A stretch of 32,000 bases of DNA from Vibrio vulnificus CMCP6 (GCF_000039765.1 NC_004459.3:2631127-2663126), one strand, 5' to 3'; shown: positions 1,575 to 16,274, numbered from the stretch's first letter. Program-made: numbers and translations. The notes: generated by a model from the sequence alone, not told the origin.

Positions 1575-2633
1575 ATGTTACAAGCGCTTAAACGTGGTTC
1601 TCTTGCAGTACTGTCTTTTTGGACAGTACTGCTGTTGACCTTAAGCTTTACCACGGTGGCACAAGAAAAAGAGAACTCTGTCGATCAAACGGAAATGACG
1701 CAATTAGCCGGGGCCGATTTTTGGCGTCAAGTTAGGGCAGGTGAGGCGGGTTACACCACGTCGACCTTTCCTGAGCACGGCGTGCTTATCAGTACCCCAG
1801 GTCAAACTTGGTATCTGTTAAAAGAAAAATGGATGTCGCCTGCCGGAGCAATCGCCATTTTTGGCAGCATTGCGATGGTGATCATGGCGTATGTGTTTGT
1901 TGGCCCTTTGATGCTCAGCAAACCTCGCACAGGGAAAAAGATCAAACGCTGGTCACGATGGGATCGCGCGCTTCACTGGAGCATGGCGTTTACCTTTCTC
2001 ACCCTTGCGTTTAGCGGTTTGATGTTGGTGTATGGTAAGCACTTCTTAAAACCTTACGTTCCTTCTGAAATTTGGGGTTTTGTTATTCTGCTTGCCAAGC
2101 AATACCACAACTACATGGGGCCATTGTTCTTCATTTTGCTGACCTTTATCTTGCTGAAATGGTGGCGTAAATCCATTCCAACAATGACGGATGTACGTTG
2201 GTTTATGAAGCTCGGTGGCATGGTAGGCAAACACAAAGGCACCCATCCATCGGCAGGTTTTTCTAACGGTGGTGAGAAAGCGATCTACTGGTTATTGATT
2301 TTCTTTGGTGTGTTTGTCGCGGCCAGTGGCCTGATCCTAGATTTCCCAATCTTTGGTCAAACACGCCGTGATATGGAGCTTTCTAACCTTGTGCACATGA
2401 TTTCGGCTTTGATCCTTATCTGCGGATTTATCTTCCATATCTACATTGGCTTGTTTGGCATGGAAGGGGCACTCGAAGGCATGGTGACTGGTGAAGTGGA
2501 TGAAACATGGGCTAAAGAACATCATGATTTGTGGTATGCAGAAATGATGGAGAAAGAGCAGCAGAGCGGCTCTCAACCCTCTAGCACCAACGAGCAAGCG
2601 AAGGTAGGAGGTCATCGTGAACAAACCTCATAA
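1575..2633 (+). CDS. fdhC: Formate dehydrogenase cytochrome b (membrane anchor) gamma subunit with an N-terminal signal/periplasmic extension
   Basis: The track ORF starts at a TTG at 1563. I prefer the ATG at 1575 (MLQALKRG...), which has GGAGAG just upstream. The protein has multiple hydrophobic helices with conserved His residues (HWSMAF, HNYMGP, HMISALILICGFIFHIYIG), typical of FdnI-like cytochrome b. Operon context supports the call. Confidence 0.8.
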   Translation: MLQALKRGSLAVLSFWTVLLLTLSFTTVAQEKENSVDQTEMTQLAGADFWRQVRAGEAGYTTSTFPEHGVLISTPGQTWYLLKEKWMSPAGAIAIFGSIAMVIMAYVFVGPLMLSKPRTGKKIKRWSRWDRALHWSMAFTFLTLAFSGLMLVYGKHFLKPYVPSEIWGFVILLAKQYHNYMGPLFFILLTFILLKWWRKSIPTMTDVRWFMKLGGMVGKHKGTHPSAGFSNGGEKAIYWLLIFFGVFVAASGLILDFPIFGQTRRDMELSNLVHMISALILICGFIFHIYIGLFGMEGALEGMVTGEVDETWAKEHHDLWYAEMMEKEQQSGSQPSSTNEQAKVGGHREQTS

Positions 2634-3045
2634 GGGTATTTGGATTGCTTACATCCTCAGCTGTTTAACACCATTTACTTTCTTACTCTCTGGTGTTATC
2701 GCGATTGTTTATGCAGGGTATCGATTGGATAAAAACCAAGATGGTGACGTTGTTAATTCACACTACTATGGATTAATTCGAACCTTCTTCCTTTATCTCA
2801 CGTTTTTCGTTGTCTTGATCGTCACCGTAGCAACCTCGAACGGTGTACTGGTCGGCGTCAGTGAATACTGGGTCAACAGTACGGTTTTGGACAATGTACT
2901 CAACAGCGTTGCCTACGCGATTCCCTACGTGGGTATGCTGTTTGCAGCGCTAGCGATATTGGTTTGGTTCTTGCGCATGTACCAAGGCATGGTTCAGCTA
3001 AGCAACAATCAACCGCATAGACCATCGACAGGTCCAAACTTATAG
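2617..3045 (+). CDS. Small polytopic membrane protein of unknown function (142 aa), last gene of the fdh transcription unit
   Basis: The GTG start at 2617 is preceded by a strong AGGAGG (about 2605-2611). It overlaps the fdhC end by 17 nt. I see three or four hydrophobic segments. A terminator follows directly. Confidence 0.6.
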   Translation: MNKPHKGIWIAYILSCLTPFTFLLSGVIAIVYAGYRLDKNQDGDVVNSHYYGLIRTFFLYLTFFVVLIVTVATSNGVLVGVSEYWVNSTVLDNVLNSVAYAIPYVGMLFAALAILVWFLRMYQGMVQLSNNQPHRPSTGPNL

Positions 3046-3071
3046 AAAAGAGCAAACCGAGAAATAGCAAA

Positions 3072-3096
3072 ATCCCCTCAACTGAGGGGATTTTTT
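3072..3096. terminator. Bidirectional Rho-independent terminator between the convergent fdh unit and the hydrolase gene
   Basis: Stem CCCCTC (3074-3079), loop AACT, stem GAGGGG (3084-3089). A T-run follows at 3091-3096 on the plus strand, and a T-rich run follows on the minus strand. Confidence 0.8.
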
Positions 3097-4616
3097 CAAT
3101 GTCCTCCGCAATGATGCCAGATTTTTTGTGCACTCAACTCATACGTACCAGTAAGCTGTTCGGTCTTAAGGTACCGTTTTTCATCATCGCTATACCCAGA
3201 TTGTATCGCTACCAGTTCACTGAAAGACCCGGTACCAGCACACTTAAGGTACCCACCTTCTATGTGCGGGCTGACATCTCTGTCATCAATATCATACTCT
3301 CGTCCAAATCGATCGGTAACCACGAGTTTAGCGGTAAGATCGAAGGGCGCTTCAAGATCGTAAATGCCTGCAATTTCACCCAACAGAAAAGATCCCGCTG
3401 GCGGAATAGCAAGGCATTCTTGCACTTGAAGGTGATACGGCTGTTGGCCATCAGGTATGGTGAGCGGAATAAGTACAGGGTTCTTCTTGGAGACAACAAG
3501 TTCTCTCTCACTAGTGATATAAGGACTACCAGCATCTTCAACCGCTCGATAGTAGTTACCACATGCACCATAGAAATCGAAAAAATAATCTACGTTCGAT
3601 AAGCCACAATAGTCCCTGCTTTCTAAACTGTCGACAAAGGCAATTTTCGGTGGGCGATGCGCTTTCAAGTAGTTTTCTGAGTATTCGAAGCGAATATCAA
3701 ATAAGTAATCTTCCATTGCTGGAGATTTGACGCTATCCAGCGCTTTGTCTACCGCGTCTTTGATCATCTGTTTGGTTTGTTGATTGGTAAGATATATTTC
3801 CACCAATCCATGTCCCAAACTATCTTTATCGCTTGTCGGGATACTTATGTTTGGAAACGGTACTGAACCAATTCCAGTAAAGTTCAATCCGTTTATGACA
3901 TGATCTTTGTCCGATAGAATGTAGTCGCCGTTAAGCGTCGGAGAAGCGGGGGCAATATGGATAACTTTAATATTCGTTTCATCATAGCCCAAACGCTGAT
4001 TGACATAATGGAATGACTCATTTACCCAAAGGTTGCCCTGTGAATGGGCCAAATAAATCAGTTTTTTACCTTGCCAAGTCTGTGAGTCATTACGAAGACG
4101 ATGTTTCATTCGAACCTCGTCAGTGTTGATATCACTCCCCGCCAAAGACGCCAAACCTTCCAAAAACTCATGAATAATCTCGTTGATACCTCGGCTTAAG
4201 GTATCATTCACGAAGGCAAGGAAACCTTTTACTAGTGAGTCAATTTTTTTAATGATTGGGCTGTTATTTCTACCGCTTACGACATCCCAAAAAGCTTCCC
4301 ATCGCTCAAACTGCTTTTGCTCCAGCTCGTTAGTTCGTTGATCGAAGGTCTCAGCAAAGTCGGCTAGTACATCAATCCCCCTTTCTTTGTAATTGGAGTC
4401 GTTGTAGAACAGAGCGTATTCAACCGGTTGACCTCGATATTGTTGGATGGCAAGAGTACTTTTTATCTCTTTCAATCCCAAAGATGCTTCTTTTCGTGAG
4501 GTTGCAACTCCGTTAAAAAAAGCGATAGTGTAACCTTGAATTTGGCAAGAACTTGCTATTACTTCAGTCGACAGAAGAGATAGCAGTAATGGAGATAAAG
4601 CAAAATATTTACTCAC
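3096..4616 (-). CDS. Exported two-domain serine hydrolase (alpha/beta-hydrolase, lipase/esterase-like N-terminal half; unknown Cys-containing C-terminal half), 506 aa
   Basis: GTG start at 4614-4616 with GGAGG (4627-4631) 9 nt upstream, and an 8-nt overlap with the upstream lipoprotein stop. Signal peptide MSKYFALSPLLLSLLSTEVIASS. IAFFNGV strand. Nucleophile elbow A-H-S-Q-G (Ser192, nt 4035-4049). Candidate Asp/His residues in SDKDHV and DSLGHG. Six Cys in the mature part. No family is assignable by eye. Confidence 0.7.
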   Translation of the reverse strand: MSKYFALSPLLLSLLSTEVIASSCQIQGYTIAFFNGVATSRKEASLGLKEIKSTLAIQQYRGQPVEYALFYNDSNYKERGIDVLADFAETFDQRTNELEQKQFERWEAFWDVVSGRNNSPIIKKIDSLVKGFLAFVNDTLSRGINEIIHEFLEGLASLAGSDINTDEVRMKHRLRNDSQTWQGKKLIYLAHSQGNLWVNESFHYVNQRLGYDETNIKVIHIAPASPTLNGDYILSDKDHVINGLNFTGIGSVPFPNISIPTSDKDSLGHGLVEIYLTNQQTKQMIKDAVDKALDSVKSPAMEDYLFDIRFEYSENYLKAHRPPKIAFVDSLESRDYCGLSNVDYFFDFYGACGNYYRAVEDAGSPYITSERELVVSKKNPVLIPLTIPDGQQPYHLQVQECLAIPPAGSFLLGEIAGIYDLEAPFDLTAKLVVTDRFGREYDIDDRDVSPHIEGGYLKCAGTGSFSELVAIQSGYSDDEKRYLKTEQLTGTYELSAQKIWHHCGGH

Positions 4617-5214
4617 AATATTTGGCCTCCGGATTCAGCAGTGTTCCCCCAGAGCCATTGAGTAATCGATTATAGGCAAGAAAAGCAAGTGTGCGTTCCT
4701 TAGTATTGTAGGTTAAGGCAGTGATCGTCCTAGACGTTTGAGTAATATCCCTTACTTGAACTCCAACAAATTCATAACACGCGATAACTTTAAAATCTTC
4801 TTTTGCTATTTCAAGCGCTTTGTGTTCATTTTCCTCTGTGTTATCACTAAAGTCATAGTGGAGATTTTCTTGAGTGCTTCTTGCGTCCTTTTTGAGAGCC
4901 TTACGAACAGGCTCTGTTACTTCTAACACATCAATAAACGCTTCGATATCATCTCGAATGCCATCTTGGTTAGTATCTGGTCCTGTCAACGAGTCAGAGC
5001 GATCTAACAAAGGCTCATAGCGTTCATAAATCACCGTTAGCTGGTCGTTAATGGTTTTCTGACTCTTTAGTGTTGCAATAAGCTCATCTGTTTTTTCAAT
5101 TTGAATGGATGGCGTTGCCGTAGCTGGGGAAGGTGATGTAGAGCGGCTTTCGCCGGATGAGTTACAACCAGCAACGCTGGCTACAACTAGCATTGTAATT
5201 AGAGTACGTGTCAT
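4609..5214 (-). CDS. Lipoprotein, copy A (201 aa), translationally coupled to the hydrolase
   Basis: ATG at 5214 with GAGG about 7 nt upstream. Lipobox VAG|C in MTRTLITMLVVASVAGCNSS, with Asn at +2. An S/T/P-rich linker follows. EF-hand-like loop DTNQDGIRDDIE. The TAA stop (4609-4611) lies inside the hydrolase start region. Confidence 0.8.
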   Translation of the reverse strand: MTRTLITMLVVASVAGCNSSGESRSTSPSPATATPSIQIEKTDELIATLKSQKTINDQLTVIYERYEPLLDRSDSLTGPDTNQDGIRDDIEAFIDVLEVTEPVRKALKKDARSTQENLHYDFSDNTEENEHKALEIAKEDFKVIACYEFVGVQVRDITQTSRTITALTYNTKERTLAFLAYNRLLNGSGGTLLNPEAKYCE

Positions 5215-5259
5215 TGTTATGCCTCAAGTAAACTAAGAAGCATGTAGTGTAAGTAGATG

Positions 5260-5288
5260 ATTTTAATAATGATAATTATGATTTTCTA
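5260..5288 (-). promoter_or_regulatory. Putative sigma70 promoter (TAGAAA-N17-TAAAAT) with an embedded Fur-box-like operator, upstream of lipoprotein copy A
   Basis: On the minus strand the -35 is TAGAAA (5283-5288) and the -10 is TAAAAT (5260-5265). The 19-mer AATAATGATAATTATGATT (5265-5283) matches the Fur consensus GATAATGATAATCATTATC at 15/19 positions by hand alignment. Confidence 0.5.
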
Positions 5289-5343
5289 TAAGGAAATTAG
5301 AATTCGTTATTAACTAATTGAAGGCACAGTTGGTGCCAACTTC

Positions 5344-5949
5344 TCACTCACAATATTTTTCCTCTGGAGAAAGCAGCGTAGAGCCAGTGCCGCTCAACAA
5401 TCTGTTATATGCTAAGTAAGCTAAAGTTCTTGCCTTTGTGTTATACGTTAACGCTCTAACTGTTCGAGAAATTTGCGTACTATCCTCAACGGGAACTTTT
5501 AAATAGTCATAGCAAGCAAGAACCTTGTTATACTTCTCGGATATCTTATAAGAAAGCCTTTCATTTTCATCAGTGGCACTTTCAAAGTCGTGGCTGATAG
5601 CTTCTTGGCTATACCGAGCTTTTTGCTTAAGTACATTACGAACAGGCTCTGCTACTTCTAACGCATCAATAAACGCTTCGACGTCATCTCGAATGCCATC
5701 TTGGTTAGTATCTGGTCCTGTCAAGGAGTCAGAGCGATCTAACAAGGGCTCATAGCGCTCATAAATCACCATTAGCTGGTCGTTAATGGTTTTCTGACTC
5801 TTTAGTGTTGCAATCAGCTCATCTGTTTTTTCAATTTGAATGGATGGCGTTGCCGAAGCTGGGGAAGGGGATGTAGAACGGCTATCGTCGGATGAGTTGC
5901 AACCAGCAATGCTGGCTACAACTAGCATTGTCATTAGAGTGCGTGTCAT
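5344..5949 (-). CDS. Lipoprotein, copy B (201 aa), tandem paralogue of copy A with a diverged central segment
   Basis: Same lipobox (VASIAGCNSS). The N-terminal ~105 aa are nearly identical to copy A. Residues ~106-160 are strongly diverged and the C-terminal ~40 aa are moderately conserved. It has its own copy of the upstream promoter region. Confidence 0.8.
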   Translation of the reverse strand: MTRTLMTMLVVASIAGCNSSDDSRSTSPSPASATPSIQIEKTDELIATLKSQKTINDQLMVIYERYEPLLDRSDSLTGPDTNQDGIRDDVEAFIDALEVAEPVRNVLKQKARYSQEAISHDFESATDENERLSYKISEKYNKVLACYDYLKVPVEDSTQISRTVRALTYNTKARTLAYLAYNRLLSGTGSTLLSPEEKYCE

Positions 5950-5994
5950 TGTTATGCCTCAAGTAAACTAAGAAGCATGCAGTGTAAGTAGATG

Positions 5995-6023
5995 ATTTTA
6001 ATAATGATAATTATGATTTTCTA
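5995..6023 (-). promoter_or_regulatory. Second copy of the same promoter and Fur-box-like operator, upstream of lipoprotein copy B
   Basis: The sequence is identical at offset +735: Fur-like 19-mer at 6000-6018, -10 at 5995-6000, -35 at 6018-6023. Confidence 0.5.
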
Positions 6024-6096
6024 TACCGTTATTAGTAGGTGTTATCGTGTTTGTATCAAAGCCGAATGATGGCATTTAACGTGAACCGATTGTTGT

Positions 6097-6113
6097 TGCA
6101 CGCAGAAGGTGCG
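6097..6113 (+). promoter_or_regulatory. NtrC-type enhancer-like palindrome upstream of amt
   Basis: TGCACGCAGAAGGTGCG has the form TGCAC-N7-GTGCg, 9/10 to the TGCAC-N7-GTGCA half-sites. Further GGTGCA and GTGCAC half-sites occur at 6122-6150. The site is about 140 bp upstream of the sigma54-like element. Confidence 0.45.
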
Positions 6114-6253
6114 CTTTCTTTTGGTGCAACTGAACTAATAAAGTGCACATTTACTTCAATTCAAGTTCTATCCCGAGCTAAGTATCGCTCTGCTAGTGAA
6201 ATAAATTACGTATATTCAATTGGATAGAATTTATTTATCAAATTGATAATAAT

Positions 6254-6269
6254 TGGAATGCTCCTTGCT
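6254..6269 (+). promoter_or_regulatory. Sigma54 (-24/-12) type promoter candidate for amt
   Basis: TGGAATGCTCCTTGCT has correct GG-N10-GC spacing and resembles TGGCAC-N5-TTGCW. It lies 100 nt upstream of the amt ATG. Confidence 0.5.
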
Positions 6270-6324
6270 CTATCTCACATTCGACGTATTTTCTCACCAA
6301 CATGGTGATATCAAACTTTACTGA

Positions 6325-6341
6325 TGCACAGGATAAGTGCA
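6325..6341 (+). promoter_or_regulatory. Perfect TGCAC-N7-GTGCA palindrome in the amt leader
   Basis: TGCACAGGATAAGTGCA lies downstream of the sigma54-like element and about 28 nt upstream of the ATG. Confidence 0.35.
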
Positions 6342-6368
6342 CTACAAAAATAACGGAGAGATCGAATA

Positions 6369-7589
6369 ATGAGCGATACTGCCAGTCAGGTTCACGGAGC
6401 CGTTCAAACCCTGACACAAAGTTCAGACACCTTATTTTTATTGCTTGGCGCTATCATGGTGTTCCTTATGCACGCCGGATTCGCTTTCTTAGAAGTTGGA
6501 ACGGTGAGACATAAAAACCAAGTTAATGCCCTGGTTAAAATCTTAGCGGATTTTGGCATTTCCACTTTGGCGTACTTCTTTATCGGCTATTGGGTCGCCT
6601 ATGGGGCGCATTTTTTTGCCGATGCGGAAACGTTAGCTCAAGGTAACGGCTATGAGTTGGTGAAGTTCTTTTTCTTGCTGACCTTTGCTGCAGCCATTCC
6701 TGCCATTGTTTCGGGGGGTATTGCCGAGCGAGCGCGTTTTTATCCCGTTTTGATTGCGACATTCTTCACCGTGGGGATTGTCTATCCTCTGTTTGAGGGC
6801 ATTATTTGGAACGGAAATTTCGGTATTCAAGCTTGGTTTGAAGCCACCTTTGGTGTCGGTTTCCATGATTTCGCAGGATCTGTGGTTGTGCATGGTGTCG
6901 GAGGATGGATTGCACTGGTTGCGGTGATTTTCTTAGGCATGCGCCGAGGACGTGTGCGTGCAGGGAAACACACTAACTTTGCCCCTTCAAATATTCCTTT
7001 TCTCGCCTTAGGAGCGTGGATCCTGTGCGTCGGTTGGTTTGGGTTTAACGTGATGTCTGCACAAACACTGAATGGCATCAGTGGTTTGGTTGCAATGAAC
7101 TCACTGATGGCGATGGCGGGCGGGATTGTCGCCGCGCTCATCGCTGGCAAAAATGACCCGGGCTTTATTCACAACGGACCACTTGCAGGATTGGTCGCTG
7201 TGTGTGCAGGATCGGATCTCATGCATCCTCTTGGCGCTTTGGTGACGGGTTCGGTCGCCGGTGTTCTGTTTGTTTACTTGTTTACCTACTTGCAAAACAA
7301 AACCAAAATTGATGATGTGTTGGGTGTTTGGCCACTTCATGGTGTCTGTGGCGCTTGGGGCGGTATTGCAGCTGGCATCTTTGGCCAATCCTCACTCGGT
7401 GGGCTAGGGGGCGTCAGTTTCACCGTTCAGCTCTTGGGTACGCTTTTGGGCATTTCGGTTGCTCTGATTGGCGCTGGTATTGTCTATGGTGCGATTAACC
7501 GCCTCAGCGGCTTGCGACTCTCTCAAGAAGATGAATTTAATGGCGCAGACTTAGCTATTCATAAGATCTCTTCCGTTAACGCTGAGTAG
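6369..7589 (+). CDS. amt: Ammonium transporter (Amt family), 406 aa, with no adjacent glnK
   Basis: GGAGAG RBS. About 11 hydrophobic helices. Amt-type motifs are present (FAFLEVG, DFAGSVVVHGVGGW, WFGFN, DDVLGVWPLHGVCGAWGG). Confidence 0.9.
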   Translation: MSDTASQVHGAVQTLTQSSDTLFLLLGAIMVFLMHAGFAFLEVGTVRHKNQVNALVKILADFGISTLAYFFIGYWVAYGAHFFADAETLAQGNGYELVKFFFLLTFAAAIPAIVSGGIAERARFYPVLIATFFTVGIVYPLFEGIIWNGNFGIQAWFEATFGVGFHDFAGSVVVHGVGGWIALVAVIFLGMRRGRVRAGKHTNFAPSNIPFLALGAWILCVGWFGFNVMSAQTLNGISGLVAMNSLMAMAGGIVAALIAGKNDPGFIHNGPLAGLVAVCAGSDLMHPLGALVTGSVAGVLFVYLFTYLQNKTKIDDVLGVWPLHGVCGAWGGIAAGIFGQSSLGGLGGVSFTVQLLGTLLGISVALIGAGIVYGAINRLSGLRLSQEDEFNGADLAIHKISSVNAE

Positions 7590-14014: not shown

Positions 14015-14812
14015 ATGAAAAACGAATTCGAAAAAGAGATTAACATTGGCGGTACTATTGAAAGTGCGCTCTCTGGTCAATATGAGCTGAGTGCTGGAGC
14101 CGTTTTTAGTGAAGCTTGGAAGAAAACGATGTCGCATTTCTTCAGCTTTTCTCCAGCTATCGTGCTGTTACTCGCGCTACAGTTGCTGATTTTCTATATC
14201 GCACTTCAACTGCAACTTGGTGAGCCGAGTGTGATCCTTGATGCCATCGTCAATCCCGATTTACTGACTGAACAAATTGTTTCGGCTATTTATGTAGCAA
14301 ACTTCAGCTACGAAGTGATTAGCGCGCCGATTTTTGCCGGTGTCAGCTTGATGGCGATGAGCCATGCCGCAGGTTTACAGACGAAAACTCGCCACATCAG
14401 CAAAGGGCTTCAATACACGATTCCCGTTATTCTTGCCACCTTGTTCAGCTTGATGCTTCAAGGCTTACTGGGCATGATTTTTCCTTTGCTTTCACTTTAT
14501 CTTTCAATGGCGTTTAGTCACTCGATTCTGCTTATCTGCGAAAAGAATGTTCCACCAATGCAATCTCTGCTGCTTTCTTTACGTGCGATCAACCGTAAAA
14601 TTCTAGTCGTATCAGGTTTGTACCTGCTGGTGATGGTGATGTTTGCGGTAGCAACGATCTTTTATGGCATCGGGTTGATTTTTGTTTTGCCATTTTTCTT
14701 CCATCTCAAAGGTATTCTCTACCGCGAGATGTTTGGTATCCGTTTGAAAATAGTGGCTACCTCCGGTTCCGACGACAATAACGATAACAATTCACAGGTA
14801 TTTAATGCTTAA
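14015..14812 (+). CDS. Polytopic inner-membrane protein of unknown function (265 aa)
   Basis: About six hydrophobic segments. Acidic/Asn-rich tail (SGSDDNNDNNSQ). 8-nt overlap with the next gene. Confidence 0.6.
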   Translation: MKNEFEKEINIGGTIESALSGQYELSAGAVFSEAWKKTMSHFFSFSPAIVLLLALQLLIFYIALQLQLGEPSVILDAIVNPDLLTEQIVSAIYVANFSYEVISAPIFAGVSLMAMSHAAGLQTKTRHISKGLQYTIPVILATLFSLMLQGLLGMIFPLLSLYLSMAFSHSILLICEKNVPPMQSLLLSLRAINRKILVVSGLYLLVMVMFAVATIFYGIGLIFVLPFFFHLKGILYREMFGIRLKIVATSGSDDNNDNNSQVFNA

Positions 14813-15593
14813 CCCATCACAATCTACATTTTTAAAAGTGACCGCTGTTGCGGCTTTTGTTGCTTTCTCTGCTGTCGGTCCTTATGTGTTCTATCGAGAC
14901 CATCAACCTAAAGAACAAGTGCAAGCTATTGAGTCTTTACCTGACTTCGCTGCGATTCAAAGTGTCGCCGAGAAAAAAAGGGCCTTTTTCGACTATCTAA
15001 GACCTATGGTGGCACTGGAAAACCAACGCGTGCTTGAAGAGCGTTCTTTTCTAGAATCTTTGGATATAGCCAACTTATCGGAAAAGCAGAACGCTCGACT
15101 CGACAAGTTAGCCTCTCGTTACAATGTCACACTTTCAGCGGAAGAAGCTAATGAAGACTCTTTGAATGAATTGATGTTAAGAGTCAATGTGTTGCCAGAA
15201 GCGCTCGTCATGATTCAAGCCGCCAACGAGTCCGCTTGGGGAACTTCGCGCTTTGCTCGTCAAGCAAACAATCTCTTTGGCCAGTGGTGCTATACCCCAG
15301 GATGTGGTGTGGTTCCACTTGAACGTAATCAAGGTGCTTTCCACGAAGTGGCGAAGTTTTCTTCGGTTCAAGATTCGGTTCATGGCTATTTTATGAACGT
15401 TAATCGTAATCGTGCATACAGAGAGCTGCGTGAGATTCGCGCCACTCTTGATATGCAAGGTCGCGATCTACAAAGCGTCTCCGTGGCGACAGAACTGACG
15501 AATGGCCTGCTTTCCTATTCAGAGAGAGGGCAGGATTATGTTGATGATCTGCAAGCGATGATCCGCCACAATGCAGAATTTTGGACAAACTAA
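14805..15593 (+). CDS. bax: Bax-like protein with a glucosaminidase (FlgJ C-terminal/LytD-type) domain
   Basis: N-terminal membrane anchor or signal. Glucosaminidase-type motif QAANESAWGTSRFARQANNLFGQW. Confidence 0.7.
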   Translation: MLNPSQSTFLKVTAVAAFVAFSAVGPYVFYRDHQPKEQVQAIESLPDFAAIQSVAEKKRAFFDYLRPMVALENQRVLEERSFLESLDIANLSEKQNARLDKLASRYNVTLSAEEANEDSLNELMLRVNVLPEALVMIQAANESAWGTSRFARQANNLFGQWCYTPGCGVVPLERNQGAFHEVAKFSSVQDSVHGYFMNVNRNRAYRELREIRATLDMQGRDLQSVSVATELTNGLLSYSERGQDYVDDLQAMIRHNAEFWTN

Positions 15594-15611: not shown

Positions 15612-16274
15612 ATGAGAAAGATTGGCCTCACCTTACTCTGTACTGCCTTATCCTCTTTCGTGGTGACACCCGTCGCTGCGCAAGAATACATGTTTACCTA
15701 CTCAAAGCTCTTCTCTCAATTAAAAAACAATACCAAAGAGGGGCATGAAGACGTTAAGGTCGGCATTTTTTTCGTTAATCCTCAAACCAAACAGCTTTGT
15801 GATATTGAAAAAGCGTGGATGGAAAAGGAGGAGCATTACGAAGAATTTATGATTCCCGCATCAAAAGAGTTACCGCTGCCAATAGACAACAACCTCAAGT
15901 CAGCAAATCCACTGGTTTTTGTTCAGACACCGCAAGATATGCGCTGTGACTACTCGCTCGTTGTAATGACCAAGCAGCCATTACAAGGAAAAGTGACGTA
16001 TGCGCAGCTAGAGCCACTCATGCCACAGATGAAAACCATGTTGGATGATTTAGGCGGCATGTTTTCTAGCTGGTTTACGCCTGATGTAGAAGGGGTGACA
16101 ATGGAGTTCGCCGATCAATTAAACGACATGATTACCTTCTCCAATGGGCAGAAAAAAGCGATCATCAACGGTAAGGTACAAGTGGCACTTAGTGAGATAG
16201 GCGAAGCGGGCTATATGGTGTTACCACAGCCCACTATGCGCGTTTTGCCTTACTTACCTGCGGCAAAGAAATAA
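15612..16274 (+). CDS. Secreted protein of unknown function (220 aa)
   Basis: Signal peptide MRKIGLTLLCTALSSFVVTPVAAQ. No motif recognised. Confidence 0.55.
   Translation: MRKIGLTLLCTALSSFVVTPVAAQEYMFTYSKLFSQLKNNTKEGHEDVKVGIFFVNPQTKQLCDIEKAWMEKEEHYEEFMIPASKELPLPIDNNLKSANPLVFVQTPQDMRCDYSLVVMTKQPLQGKVTYAQLEPLMPQMKTMLDDLGGMFSSWFTPDVEGVTMEFADQLNDMITFSNGQKKAIINGKVQVALSEIGEAGYMVLPQPTMRVLPYLPAAKK

What the first reader, a model, noticed from the sequence alone, without database searches (positions are those of the whole stretch)
3096..6025. Low-GC three-gene islet: Sec-exported two-domain serine hydrolase translationally coupled to a lipoprotein that exists as two tandem, diverged copies
Seen in the sequence:
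- A minus-strand block sits between the convergent fdh unit (bidirectional terminator 3072-3096) and the amt control region. The 60-nt lines I sampled are roughly 33-45% GC, against about 50% in a sampled fdh line.
- It encodes a 506-aa protein with a Sec-type signal peptide. The N-terminal half looks like an alpha/beta hydrolase: an IAFFNGV strand, an AHSQG elbow at Ser192, a DSLGHG His candidate, and a ~100-aa helical insertion before the nucleophile. The ~200-aa Cys-containing C-terminal half has no motif I recognise.
- It encodes a 201-aa lipoprotein (VAG|C lipobox, Asn+2). Its TAA (4609-4611) overlaps the hydrolase GTG (4614-4616), and the hydrolase SD GGAGG is embedded in the lipoprotein's last codons.
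- It encodes a second copy of the lipoprotein with its own promoter.

Inference: obligatory co-translation of an exported serine hydrolase with an envelope lipoprotein, plus an extra diverged lipoprotein, is the logic of lipase-type toxin/immunity pairs with orphan immunity genes (Tle/Tli-like). Here, however, the enzyme has its own Sec signal, and the window contains no hcp/vgrG/PAAR, Rhs or CDI context. That would make it a T6SS-independent variant.

Alternatives: a lipid-anchored Lif-like steric foldase, or an outer-membrane docking partner for a secreted lipase/haemolysin. I cannot place either protein in a named family by eye.
Basis: partly seen in the sequence, partly recalled or inferred. 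Interest (0 to 1): 0.8.

Follow-up and report, generated by a model that had tools for sequence, protein, structure and literature searches.

The report
Exported hydrolase with swappable lipoprotein antidotes
Vibrio vulnificus carries an uncharacterised two-gene module, an exported cutinase-like serine hydrolase coupled to an outer-membrane lipoprotein, whose variation between strains looks like a toxin/antidote weapon that needs no type VI secretion system; no experiment has tested this.

Summary
Three minus-strand genes lie between fdh and amtB: two 201-aa lipoproteins and a 506-aa Sec-exported hydrolase. The hydrolase GTG overlaps the proximal lipoprotein stop codon.

No Pfam, NCBIfam, PADLOC or PDB-sequence match exists for any of the three. 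The hydrolase core models as a cutinase-like α/β-hydrolase with an invariant AHSQGN elbow. The lipoprotein is a confident all-α fold with no solved relative.

The pair is adjacent on the same strand in nearly every one of 79 species-level loci, from Vibrionaceae to Comamonadaceae, Campylobacterota, Myxococcota and Planctomycetota. No T6SS gene or other recurrent gene is linked.

V. vulnificus strains carry 1–3 lipoprotein genes at this site. A sharply bounded ~470-nt cassette (lipoprotein codons ~100–201 plus hydrolase codons 1–57) is 50–73 % identical between strains; the flanks are 90–100 % identical. Each hydrolase N-terminal type has its own proximal lipoprotein type, and "extra" copies match other strains' proximal type. 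Orphan modules elsewhere are a lipoprotein plus a hydrolase N-terminal fragment. V. harveyi keeps the lipoprotein without the enzyme.

Best reading (confidence about 0.6): a T6SS-independent hydrolase toxin with allele-specific lipoprotein immunity. Toxicity, substrate and delivery route are untested. Two natural lipoprotein–hydrolase fusions are a caveat.

The parts
3096..4616 (-). Hydrolase gene (506 aa, GTG start). It has a Sec signal peptide (residues 1-21), a cutinase-like alpha/beta-hydrolase domain (about 24-300) and a Vibrionaceae-specific beta-rich C-terminal half (about 301-506).
   Evidence: ORF. Homologues and invariant residues. Structure model. Cutinases are the best PDB folds. 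The C-terminal half is unrelated to the DUF2135-like domain of other relatives.
3717..4547 (-). Catalytic domain (residues 24-300). It contains the FFNGV oxyanion loop (33-37), the DFAETFDQR helix of the cap, the AHSQGN nucleophile elbow (Ser192, codon 4041-4043), HIAPASP (220-226), Asp238 (3903-3905) and Gly-His269 (3810-3812).
   Evidence: These residues are invariant or near-invariant columns in 55 sequences. pLDDT exceeds 90 for the core strands. Assigning them to the triad and oxyanion hole is inference from the alpha/beta-hydrolase fold.
4450..4915 (-). Hypervariable specificity cassette. It is one contiguous segment covering lipoprotein A codons ~100-201 and hydrolase codons 1-57 (signal peptide, strand beta1, helix alpha1 at residues 41-55 = 4452-4496).
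   Evidence: DNA identity between V. vulnificus haplotypes is 50-73% here and 90-100% on both sides.
4609..5214 (-). Proximal lipoprotein A (cassette type alpha), predicted cognate partner or immunity protein of this hydrolase allele. Features: lipobox Cys17 (5164-5166), Ser/Pro/Thr-rich tether (18-40), all-alpha domain (41-201), EF-hand-like loop D80-E91 (4942-4977), Cys146/Cys200 pair.
   Evidence: ORF. Family alignment and invariant columns. Model pLDDT exceeds 90 for residues 40-201. No PDB fold or sequence relative.
5344..5949 (-). Distal lipoprotein B (cassette type beta), predicted orphan immunity gene. Its C-terminal half is 98% identical to the hydrolase-proximal lipoprotein of strains L085/L086, and 94% identical to a V. 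cidicii lipoprotein.
5215..5290 (-). Promoter/5'UTR copy in front of lipoprotein A (TAGAAA-17-TAAAAT at 5288-5260). It is part of the duplicated unit.
5950..6025 (-). Promoter/5'UTR copy in front of lipoprotein B (TAGAAA-17-TAAAAT at 6023-5995).
3069..3094 (.). Hairpin terminator shared with the convergent fdh-side unit. It marks the end of the module.
   Evidence: 11-bp stem followed by a T-run.

Best explanation
The module is a self-contained toxin/immunity system that uses the general Sec pathway rather than a T6SS.

**The enzyme.** The 506-aa protein is exported to the periplasm. Its catalytic domain is a minimal cutinase-like serine esterase. The predicted triad is Ser192-Asp238-His269, with the oxyanion hole formed by the FFNGV loop and Gln193, under a ~100-residue helical cap. 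It most likely cleaves ester bonds of envelope lipids.

**The lipoprotein.** It is lipid-anchored, probably in the outer membrane (Asn at +2), on a flexible Ser/Pro/Thr tether. It is an all-alpha, disulfide-containing protein with a probable Ca2+-binding loop. Its variable C-terminal half docks onto the exposed face of hydrolase helix alpha1, which follows directly after the oxyanion loop, and keeps the enzyme harmless. Translational coupling supplies partner and enzyme together.

**Attack and defence.** The enzyme leaves the cell by an unidentified route (T2SS or vesicles). It damages neighbours that lack a matching lipoprotein. Specificity is encoded in one recombining cassette (lipoprotein C-half plus hydrolase N-terminus). 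Strains accumulate promoter-equipped orphan lipoproteins that match other strains' enzymes.

**Shown here:** gene anatomy; conservation of the pair; fold class; invariant residues; cassette boundaries; co-switching of the two variable parts; identity of orphans with cognates elsewhere; retention of the lipoprotein without the enzyme.

**Inferred:** physical binding and inhibition; lipid substrate; toxicity; export beyond the periplasm; entry into target cells.
For: 1. **Pair conserved.** A lipoprotein homologue lies directly adjacent on the same strand in nearly every one of 79 species-level loci across several phyla (the few exceptions are in-frame fusions, L033 and L073, or contig ends), usually overlapping the hydrolase start.
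2. **Exported serine hydrolase.** It has a signal peptide and invariant FFNG / AHSQGN / HIAPASP / GH motifs. The confident alpha/beta core has cutinases as best PDB matches (E 2e-3, prob 0.97).
3. **Copy-number polymorphism at one chromosomal site.** V. vulnificus strains carry 1, 2 or 3 lipoprotein genes there.
4. **Discrete specificity types.** Five C-half types occur among 29 V. vulnificus cluster representatives. N-halves have median 95% identity and C-halves 59%.
5. **Sharp cassette.** Identity is 50-73% across ~470 nt spanning the lipoprotein C-half and hydrolase codons 1-57. Flanks are 90-100% identical, and hydrolase residues 58-506 are 96-100% identical.
6. **Cognate/orphan logic.**
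   - The window is beta-alpha-hydrolase; L085/L086 are alpha-gamma-beta-hydrolase'; L084 is delta-hydrolase''.
   - The L017 orphan lipoprotein is 99-100% identical to the L007 cognate. The attached hydrolase fragment matches the L007 enzyme (97%), not the intact enzyme of its own genome (72%).
   - L021 fragment 2 matches L023 (97%).
7. **Same hot spot in unrelated clades.** Hydrolases with 92-98% identical cores differ at columns spaced i, i+3/4, i+7 of helix alpha1. This includes genes where the lipoprotein lies downstream, ~900 nt away. Where alpha1 is unchanged, the lipoprotein C-half is 96% identical.
8. **Arrays of up to 5 intact lipoproteins** sit beside one hydrolase. Orphans keep the lipobox, the Ca-loop motif and the Cys pair.
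9. **V. harveyi keeps an intact lipoprotein** with only the first 10 codons of the hydrolase remaining.
10. **No T6SS, Rhs, CDI or other recurrent neighbour**.
Against: - No experiment shows toxicity, binding or lipase activity. The substrate is unknown.
- Two natural single-chain fusions, lipoprotein domain followed by hydrolase, exist in L001/P0062 and the Phycisphaeraceae locus L033. They fit an in-cis chaperone, pro-domain or anchor more naturally than an antidote. They remain compatible with toxin-immunity complexes that travel together, as colicins do, or with dual-role Tli (10.1101/2023.03.28.534661).
- No delivery or uptake route is identifiable. The accessory domains have no known homologues.
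- The classical polymorphic-toxin criterion, a shared N-terminal region with alternative C-terminal toxin domains, was tested and not met.
- The alpha1 to lipoprotein C-half correlation over all loci is modest and the pairs are not independent (Spearman 0.38, p = 0.03).
- In architecture (a) the two variable parts are physically contiguous, so co-switching there could reflect linkage alone.
Confidence: 0.6

Rival explanations
1. Dedicated chaperone/anchor model, either Lif-like or pro-domain-like. The lipoprotein folds, tethers and/or transiently masks a secreted lipase or haemolysin-type virulence enzyme during its passage through the producer's periplasm. It has no role in inter-bacterial immunity. 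The extra copies are by-products of recombination.
For: - The two genes show strict co-occurrence and translational coupling.
- Natural fusions place the lipoprotein domain N-terminal to the hydrolase in one polypeptide, like an intramolecular chaperone or pro-domain.
- There is precedent for adjacent membrane-anchored helical partners of Sec/T2SS lipases, such as Lif (established knowledge).
- There is precedent for a Tli that is required to activate its Tle (10.1101/2023.03.28.534661).
Against: - It does not explain the discrete, deeply diverged specificity types within one species.
- It does not explain why orphans are identical to other strains' cognates.
- It does not explain arrays of up to five intact copies.
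- It does not explain retention of an intact lipoprotein after deletion of the enzyme in V. harveyi.
- There is no sequence or fold similarity to Lif: no Pfam Lipase_chap hit and no PDB hit.
Confidence: 0.2
2. Surface-variation model. The lipoprotein C-half is exposed and diversifies under pressure from phages, grazers or host immunity. The hydrolase helix alpha1 co-evolves merely to keep binding its docking partner. Multiple copies provide antigenic variety.
For: - The lipoprotein has a variable half next to a conserved half, and multi-copy arrays each carry their own promoter.
- The lipoprotein fold is unknown, so surface exposure cannot be excluded.
Against: - The variable types are few and discrete, and are shared across strains and even with V. 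cidicii. This fits balanced specificity groups better than open-ended antigenic drift.
- Orphan modules carry matching hydrolase N-terminal fragments.
- The same hot spot on the enzyme recurs in phylogenetically distant, free-living freshwater taxa.
- There are no phase-variation repeats or invertible elements in the locus.
Confidence: 0.08
3. Housekeeping envelope-remodelling enzyme, for example a lipid, lipoprotein or peptidoglycan O-acyl esterase. A regulatory lipoprotein controls its activity in the producer's own envelope.
For: - It is a periplasmic serine esterase with a lipoprotein partner.
- Polar invariant residues in the cap helix (D86, E89, Q93, R94) could bind a polar head group or glycan.
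- The surrounding genes are ordinary chromosomal genes.
Against: - Distribution is patchy: 171 hits among 185,579 species genomes.
- It occurs on a plasmid and next to transposases.
- The enzyme is frequently a pseudogene (L015, L034, L047, L052, L075).
- Copy number and alleles are polymorphic within a species.
- None of these features is typical of housekeeping functions.
Confidence: 0.07

Closest known systems
T6SS lipase effectors and their immunity proteins (Tle1-4 / Tli; e.g. V. cholerae TseL-TsiV1, E. cloacae Tle-Tli)
   Same: - The enzyme is a GxSxG alpha/beta-hydrolase that acts, or would act, in the periplasm.
- The neighbouring gene encodes a periplasm-facing lipoprotein partner.
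- Immunity genes can occur in several copies.
- Tli can be both antidote and activator (10.1101/2023.03.28.534661). That would reconcile the natural fusions seen here.
   Different: - There is no match to any Pfam model at E <= 1, so none to those I recall for Tle families, and no PDB sequence relative.
- The enzyme has its own Sec signal.
- No T6SS genes, PAAR/VgrG or adaptor lie in this window or in 80+ related loci.
- The immunity gene lies upstream and overlaps the toxin start.
- Polymorphism is limited to one helix of the enzyme.
Nuclease colicins/pyocins with Im proteins (E2/E7/E8/E9-type)
   Same: - A conserved catalytic domain is paired with allele-specific, helical immunity proteins.
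- These are thought to bind a variable exosite next to the active site.
- Specificity groups are discrete, and strains hold extra immunity genes.
- Toxin and immunity travel as a complex. (All from established knowledge.)
   Different: - The chemistry differs: an esterase rather than a nuclease.
- Export is by Sec, not by lysis-protein release.
- The immunity protein is a lipoprotein in the envelope, not a cytoplasmic protein.
- No recognisable receptor-binding or translocation domain is present.
CDI (CdiA-CT/CdiI) and Rhs orphan toxin/immunity modules
   Same: - Displaced 'orphan' modules accumulate beside the active gene.
- They are bounded by a conserved sequence that permits homologous recombination.
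- Orphans in one strain equal active modules in another.
   Different: - The layout is the mirror image. Here the variable part is the N-terminus of the enzyme plus the 3' half of the upstream immunity gene.
- The catalytic domain itself is not exchanged.
- The test for alternative C-terminal toxin domains was negative.
Lipase-specific foldases (Lif: LipH/LimA) and other membrane-anchored T2SS substrate chaperones
   Same: - A Sec-exported lipolytic enzyme is encoded next to a membrane-anchored, mostly helical partner.
- The two are co-expressed.
   Different: - There is no homology to Lif in sequence or fold.
- The anchor is a lipobox rather than a transmembrane helix.
- The partner is multi-copy, polymorphic and retained without the enzyme.
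Cutinases (fungal/bacterial minimal alpha/beta-hydrolases, G-Y-S-Q-G elbow)
   Same: - They are the best structural matches (2czq, 4pse, 5ajh, 1xzd).
- Both have an S-Q-G nucleophile elbow and a compact five-strand core.
   Different: - Sequence identity is only about 10%, with low TM-scores.
- This enzyme has a ~100-residue helical cap inserted before the nucleophile strand.
- It carries additional invariant motifs (DFAETFDQR, HIAPASP) and extra C- or N-terminal domains.

Membership tests
Tle1-Tle5 T6SS lipase effectors | Sequence membership in a Tle family. From memory, their Pfam models include DUF2235 (Tle1), Lipase_3 (Tle2), DUF3274 (Tle3) and PLD (Tle5). | tested here: not met
   No Pfam or NCBIfam family matched at E <= 1 other than chance-level hits. 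The family profile has no PDB sequence relatives.
Tle1-Tle5 T6SS lipase effectors | Genetic linkage to T6SS components (vgrG, hcp, PAAR, adaptors), and absence of a Sec signal on the effector. | tested here: not met
   The window holds only housekeeping genes. No recurrent neighbour appears in 80+ loci. A Sec signal or lipobox is present on the hydrolases.
Tle1-Tle5 T6SS lipase effectors | Phospholipase activity that is toxic in the periplasm and neutralised by the adjacent Tli. | not testable with these tools
   This requires expression and enzymology.
Lif lipase-specific foldases | Lipase_chap (PF03280) homology, or the extended helical Lif fold. | tested here: not met
   There is no Pfam hit. 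Foldseek of the confident lipoprotein model finds nothing at E < 3 in PDB. The profile against PDB sequences finds nothing below E 0.4.
Lif lipase-specific foldases | The partner is required for folding or activity of the lipase. | not testable with these tools
   This needs refolding or secretion assays. The natural fusions keep the possibility open.
Classical polymorphic toxin systems (Zhang et al. 2012, PMC3482391) | A conserved N-terminal trafficking region is joined to alternative C-terminal toxin domains. | tested here: not met
   The N-extension of P0068 has only 13 relatives among 1.84 billion representatives. All full-length ones end in the same hydrolase domain. A second N-extension (L053) found nothing.
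Classical polymorphic toxin systems (Zhang et al. 2012, PMC3482391) | An adjacent, cognate, variable immunity gene, with orphan modules generated by recombination. | tested here: met
   Searches show co-switching cassettes, orphans equal to cognates elsewhere, and orphan modules carrying hydrolase fragments.
Alpha/beta-hydrolase superfamily, cutinase-like | A nucleophile elbow (G/A-x-S-x-G) after a central beta strand, Ser-Asp-His order, and an alpha/beta core. | tested here: met
   AHSQGN, D238 and H269 are conserved in that order. The model core has pLDDT above 90. Cutinases are the top PDB hits, with prob up to 0.97. Triad geometry was not inspected because no coordinates were available.
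Bacterial lipoproteins (Lgt/LspA substrates) | An N-terminal signal peptide ending in a lipobox [LVI][ASTVI][GAS]C. | tested here: met
   VAGC and IAGC occur in the two window copies. Lipoboxes are present in nearly all of 111 family members, orphans included.

The most novel reading that the evidence does not exclude
This is a widespread, previously undescribed class of Sec-dependent, T6SS-independent antibacterial esterase toxins. Strain specificity is encoded by a small 'mirror-image' cassette: one exposed face of the helix next to the oxyanion hole, plus the C-terminal half of an upstream outer-membrane lipoprotein. The toxin domain itself is not swapped. Cells collect promoter-equipped orphan lipoproteins as a record of the enemy variants they can resist. 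Delivery would use general routes, T2SS or outer-membrane vesicles. That would make it a lipid-targeting bacteriocin system of Gram-negative bacteria with a new immunity fold.
Probability: 0.5. Interest if true: 0.85.

Novelty: new variant of a known kind. Interest (0 to 1): 0.74.

Why it matters
Lipase-type antibacterial toxins of Gram-negative bacteria are known almost only as cargo of type VI, IV or VII secretion machines. A self-contained, Sec-exported hydrolase/lipoprotein module would add a new delivery logic and two new protein families to inter-bacterial warfare. It is found from marine vibrios, including the pathogens V. vulnificus, V. parahaemolyticus and Photobacterium damselae, to freshwater Comamonadaceae.

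The very small specificity determinant, one helix face against half of a helical lipoprotein, gives a compact system for studying how toxin-immunity specificity evolves. It could also serve as a strain-typing or kin-discrimination marker in Vibrio populations.

The analysis also corrects a propagated annotation error. The lipoprotein family is named 'chromosome partitioning protein ParA' in hundreds of records.

Tried and rejected
- **Curated libraries.** Pfam, NCBIfam and PADLOC scans of all three proteins and of distant relatives gave nothing meaningful.
- **Profile searches against PDB sequences.** The hydrolase profile hit only a de novo designed repeat protein by chance. The lipoprotein profile found nothing below E 0.4.
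- **Polymorphic-toxin test on the N-terminal extensions.** The L053 extension found no relatives in the word-indexed database. The P0068 extension found 13 relatives, all joined to the same hydrolase. The classical criterion is rejected.
- **Vibrionaceae C-terminal half as a diverged DUF2135/YfaP-like domain.** Rejected: hhalign probability 0.1%.
- **A conserved third gene (secretion, lysis, receptor, T6SS).** None was found. The apparent clusters were genus-level synteny or spurious high-GC frames.
- **Positive selection by dN/dS.** Not demonstrable. Synonymous sites in the variable half are saturated (pS 0.76-0.82), so only ancient divergence or recombination can be claimed.
- **Literature.** Six full-text searches, including by protein accession, found no paper on either protein.

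Full report
**1. What is in the window**

- hydrolase, 3096-4616, 506 aa, GTG start;
- lipoprotein A, 4609-5214, 201 aa;
- lipoprotein B, 5344-5949, 201 aa.

The end of lipoprotein A reads AAA TAT TGT GAG TAA. The hydrolase GTG lies inside it (8-nt overlap), and GGAGG sits 9 nt upstream of the GTG.

Each lipoprotein gene is preceded by the same ~76-nt leader, which carries an identical promoter-like TAGAAA-17-TAAAAT. A strong hairpin terminator follows the hydrolase (3094-3069).

GC is 0.36-0.46 across 3400-6400 and 0.45-0.52 in the flanking fdh and amtB genes. The dip is real but modest.

The sequence is Vibrio vulnificus. It is identical to CMCP6 and MO6-24/O proteins AAO10945.2 and ADV86521.1. 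The remainder of the window is housekeeping: pot ABC transporter, Fnr-like regulator, cbb3 oxidase, P-type ATPase. It has no T6SS, Rhs, CDI or T2SS genes.

**2. The proteins belong to no described family**

Pfam, NCBIfam and PADLOC give no significant hit for any of the three. Family profiles find no relative among PDB sequences. Six literature searches, including by accession, found nothing. Public records call the hydrolase 'hypothetical'. They call the lipoprotein 'chromosome partitioning protein ParA'; no ParA or ATPase model matched it in any library, so the name looks like a propagated error.

*Hydrolase.* An alignment of 55 homologues shows a conserved domain at residues ~24-300. Its invariant residues are N35-G36 (FFNGV), D86/E89/F91/Q93/R94 (DFAETFDQR), A190-H-S192-Q-G-N-L, H220/A222-P-A (HIAPASP) and G268-H269. 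D238 is near-invariant.

The AlphaFold model has pLDDT above 90 in the core strands. It also has a lower-confidence helical cap (helices 82-181) inserted before the nucleophile strand. The best PDB matches are cutinases (2czq E 2e-3, prob 0.97; also 4pse, 5ajh, 1xzd). These share the S-Q-G elbow. TM-scores are low.

I infer a Ser192-Asp238-His269 esterase of the minimal, cutinase-like alpha/beta-hydrolase type. The substrate is unknown.

The C-terminal ~200 residues are specific to Vibrionaceae. They are unrelated to the ~130-residue 'DUF2135/YfaP-like' C-terminal domain of other relatives (hhalign probability 0.1%).

*Lipoprotein.* It models confidently (pLDDT above 90 for residues 40-201) as an all-alpha bundle behind a disordered Ser/Pro/Thr tether. 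Foldseek finds nothing below E = 3 in PDB.

Its invariant residues include a loop, G78-x-D80-x-N82-x-D84-G85-I-R-D88-D-x-E91, that fits the EF-hand/DxDxDG Ca2+-loop pattern. This is inference from the motif. Two further Cys residues (C146, C200) are nearly universal in the family.

**3. The pair is an ancient, self-contained module**

A scan of one genome per species found 171 relatives. I analysed 79 loci.

HMM searches of six-frame ORFs found a lipoprotein homologue directly adjacent, on the same strand, in nearly every locus. The few exceptions are in-frame fusions (L033, L073) or loci cut by contig ends. The taxa include Vibrionaceae, Moritella, Shewanella, Moraxellaceae, Pseudomonas, many Comamonadaceae and Oxalobacteraceae, Sphingomonas, Campylobacterota, a Polyangiaceae MAG and a Phycisphaeraceae MAG.

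Cupriavidus and Marinobacter relatives show the same overlapping lipoprotein-then-hydrolase arrangement. So does V. parahaemolyticus.

Two architectures exist:
- (a) The lipoprotein is followed by a hydrolase that carries a C-terminal accessory domain, as in this window.
- (b) A protein with its own Sec signal or lipobox and a 120-550-aa Cys-rich N-terminal extension ends in the hydrolase domain. It is followed by one to five tandem lipoprotein genes.

No third gene recurs across genera. One locus is on a Vibrio plasmid (L028), and one sits between transposases.

**4. Population signature in V. vulnificus**

The same slot between amtB and fdh holds one (L084), two (window) or three (L085, L086) lipoprotein genes.

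The window's two copies are mosaics:
- leader plus codons 1-100 are 92-97% identical in DNA (dS 0.14);
- at codon ~100 identity drops abruptly to 53-68%, with saturated synonymous sites.

Among 29 V. vulnificus cluster representatives there are five discrete C-half types. Median identity is 95% for N-halves and 59% for C-halves. Type beta is shared with V. cidicii (94%).

The three hydrolase alleles examined are 96-100% identical over residues 58-506. They are only 28-60% identical over residues 1-57, which cover the signal peptide, strand beta1 and helix alpha1.

At DNA level this defines one contiguous ~470-nt cassette, window ~4450-4915. It is 50-73% identical between haplotypes, while both flanks are 90-100% identical.

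Gene order differs between haplotypes:
- window: beta-alpha-hydrolase;
- L085/L086: alpha-gamma-beta-hydrolase';
- L084: delta-hydrolase''.

So each hydrolase N-terminal type has its own proximal lipoprotein type. The 'extra' copy in one strain is the proximal copy of another strain.

**5. The same pattern recurs in unrelated clades**

Hydrolases whose cores are 92-98% identical differ mainly at alignment columns 51/52, 55/56, 59/60 and 63. That spacing corresponds to one face of helix alpha1. The pattern includes architecture (b) genes, where the lipoprotein gene is ~900 nt away, so linkage alone cannot explain it.

- Where alpha1 differs, the partner's C-half is 56-73% identical.
- Where alpha1 is unchanged (L082/L062), the partner's C-half is 96% identical.

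Over 34 pairs with 80-99% core identity, mean identities are core 88, alpha1 61, lipoprotein N-part 89 and C-half 76. Alpha1 correlates with the C-half (Spearman 0.38, p = 0.03). Core identity does not (0.06). The pairs are not independent.

Orphan modules consist of a lipoprotein plus an N-terminal fragment of the hydrolase:
- V. chagasii L017 has an orphan lipoprotein 99-100% identical to the cognate of strain L007. The attached fragment is 97% identical to L007's enzyme and 72% to its own intact enzyme.
- Polaromonas L021 has three such modules in a row, each with a different alpha1. One matches L023.

Orphan lipoproteins are intact, with lipobox, Ca-loop motif and Cys pair.

In three V. 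harveyi assemblies the lipoprotein is intact, but only the first 10 codons of the hydrolase remain.

**6. Interpretation**

These features fit cognate toxin/immunity pairs with orphan immunity genes:
- allele-specific co-variation of two short surfaces;
- discrete, balanced types;
- orphans that equal cognates elsewhere;
- accumulation of intact partner genes;
- partner retention after enzyme loss;
- patchy and mobile distribution.

They resemble a mirror image of CDI/Rhs orphan modules and the exosite specificity of colicin DNase/Im pairs.

Helix alpha1 directly follows the oxyanion loop. A lipoprotein docked there could plausibly block the active site (inference).

The enzymes carry Sec signals, and no T6SS is linked. 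The system would therefore be T6SS-independent.

**7. What argues against, and what is unknown**

- Nothing shows toxicity, binding, substrate or delivery.
- Two natural fusions place the lipoprotein domain N-terminal to the hydrolase in one lipoprotein chain. In P0062 (752 aa) the lipoprotein-like region is 33% identical, E = 1e-17. L033 is 613 aa. This suits a chaperone, pro-domain or anchor role.
- The fusions can be reconciled if enzyme and partner travel as a complex. They can also be reconciled if the partner has a dual role, as reported for E. cloacae Tli (10.1101/2023.03.28.534661).
- The classical polymorphic-toxin criterion, a shared N-terminus with alternative toxin domains, was tested and not met.
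- dN/dS above 1 cannot be shown because synonymous sites are saturated.

**8. Verdict**

The system works like Tle/Tli or colicin/Im pairs, but it is not a member of those families. It is best described as a new variant of a known kind.

Confidence in the toxin/immunity mechanism is about 0.6. The main rival, a dedicated chaperone/anchor, is at about 0.2.

Noticed in passing
window 4609-5214 and 5344-5949; proteins P0105-P0224: The lipoprotein family is annotated in hundreds of NCBI/UniRef records as 'chromosome partitioning protein ParA', and occasionally as 'ATPase', 'chromosome segregation ATPase' or 'UPF0325 protein YaeH'. It is a 200-aa lipobox protein and matched no ParA/ATPase model in Pfam or NCBIfam. 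This looks like a propagated mis-annotation.
   Followed up: partly
L001 2889-5147 (P0062, 752 aa) and L033 ~5407-7233 (613 aa, Phycisphaeraceae MAG): These are natural single-chain fusions: lipobox, then the lipoprotein-like domain, then the hydrolase, then a DUF2135-like domain. There is no internal signal peptide. L073 looks like a deletion-generated fusion of a truncated hydrolase to the tail of a lipoprotein.
   Followed up: partly
L087/L088/L089 (V. harveyi), lipoprotein at 4001-4591 (L087): An intact orphan lipoprotein is followed by only 10 codons of the hydrolase (MNKLTSVLLL*). The downstream context differs between strains: a 1256-aa protein with no Pfam hit, an MPN635_N protein, or OST-HTH plus a reverse transcriptase. 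Two DUF6795 genes lie upstream.
   Followed up: partly
L021 3473-8360 (Polaromonas MAG): Four lipoprotein genes alternate with three truncated hydrolases and one intact hydrolase. The lipoprotein tethers carry poly-Gly runs of variable length, up to ~16 Gly.
   Followed up: partly
L028 (Vibrio sp. F13 plasmid unnamed1, 162,840 bp): A distant copy of the module lies on a plasmid. Its lipoprotein lacks the canonical GxDxNxxGIRDD loop; it reads 'SVTNNEAIRDD' instead.
   Followed up: no
window 2617-3045 (+): A 142-aa very hydrophobic ORF lies directly after the formate dehydrogenase cytochrome b subunit gene and overlaps its end. It has no Pfam hit. A gene of the same length is called at the corresponding position in the other V. 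vulnificus strains examined (L084-L086).
   Followed up: no
window 14015-14812 (+): A 265-aa ORF with no Pfam hit overlaps the start of a glucosaminidase-domain protein (14805-15593). That protein is followed by a DUF2987 protein (15612-16274). This may be an uncharacterised cell-wall operon.
   Followed up: no
P0275 (3710 aa, metagenomic): A giant protein contains nine repeats that resemble a Cys-rich segment (query residues ~126-191) of the N-terminal extension of architecture (b) hydrolases. That segment may be a reusable binding module.
   Followed up: no
L011 and L015 (Vibrio sp. nBUS_14 chromosome 1); L012 and L014 (V. pectenicida): Each genome holds two copies of the module at different sites. 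In L015 the hydrolase is split by a frameshift. In L014 the hydrolase core is joined to a different C-terminal region (549 aa).
   Followed up: no
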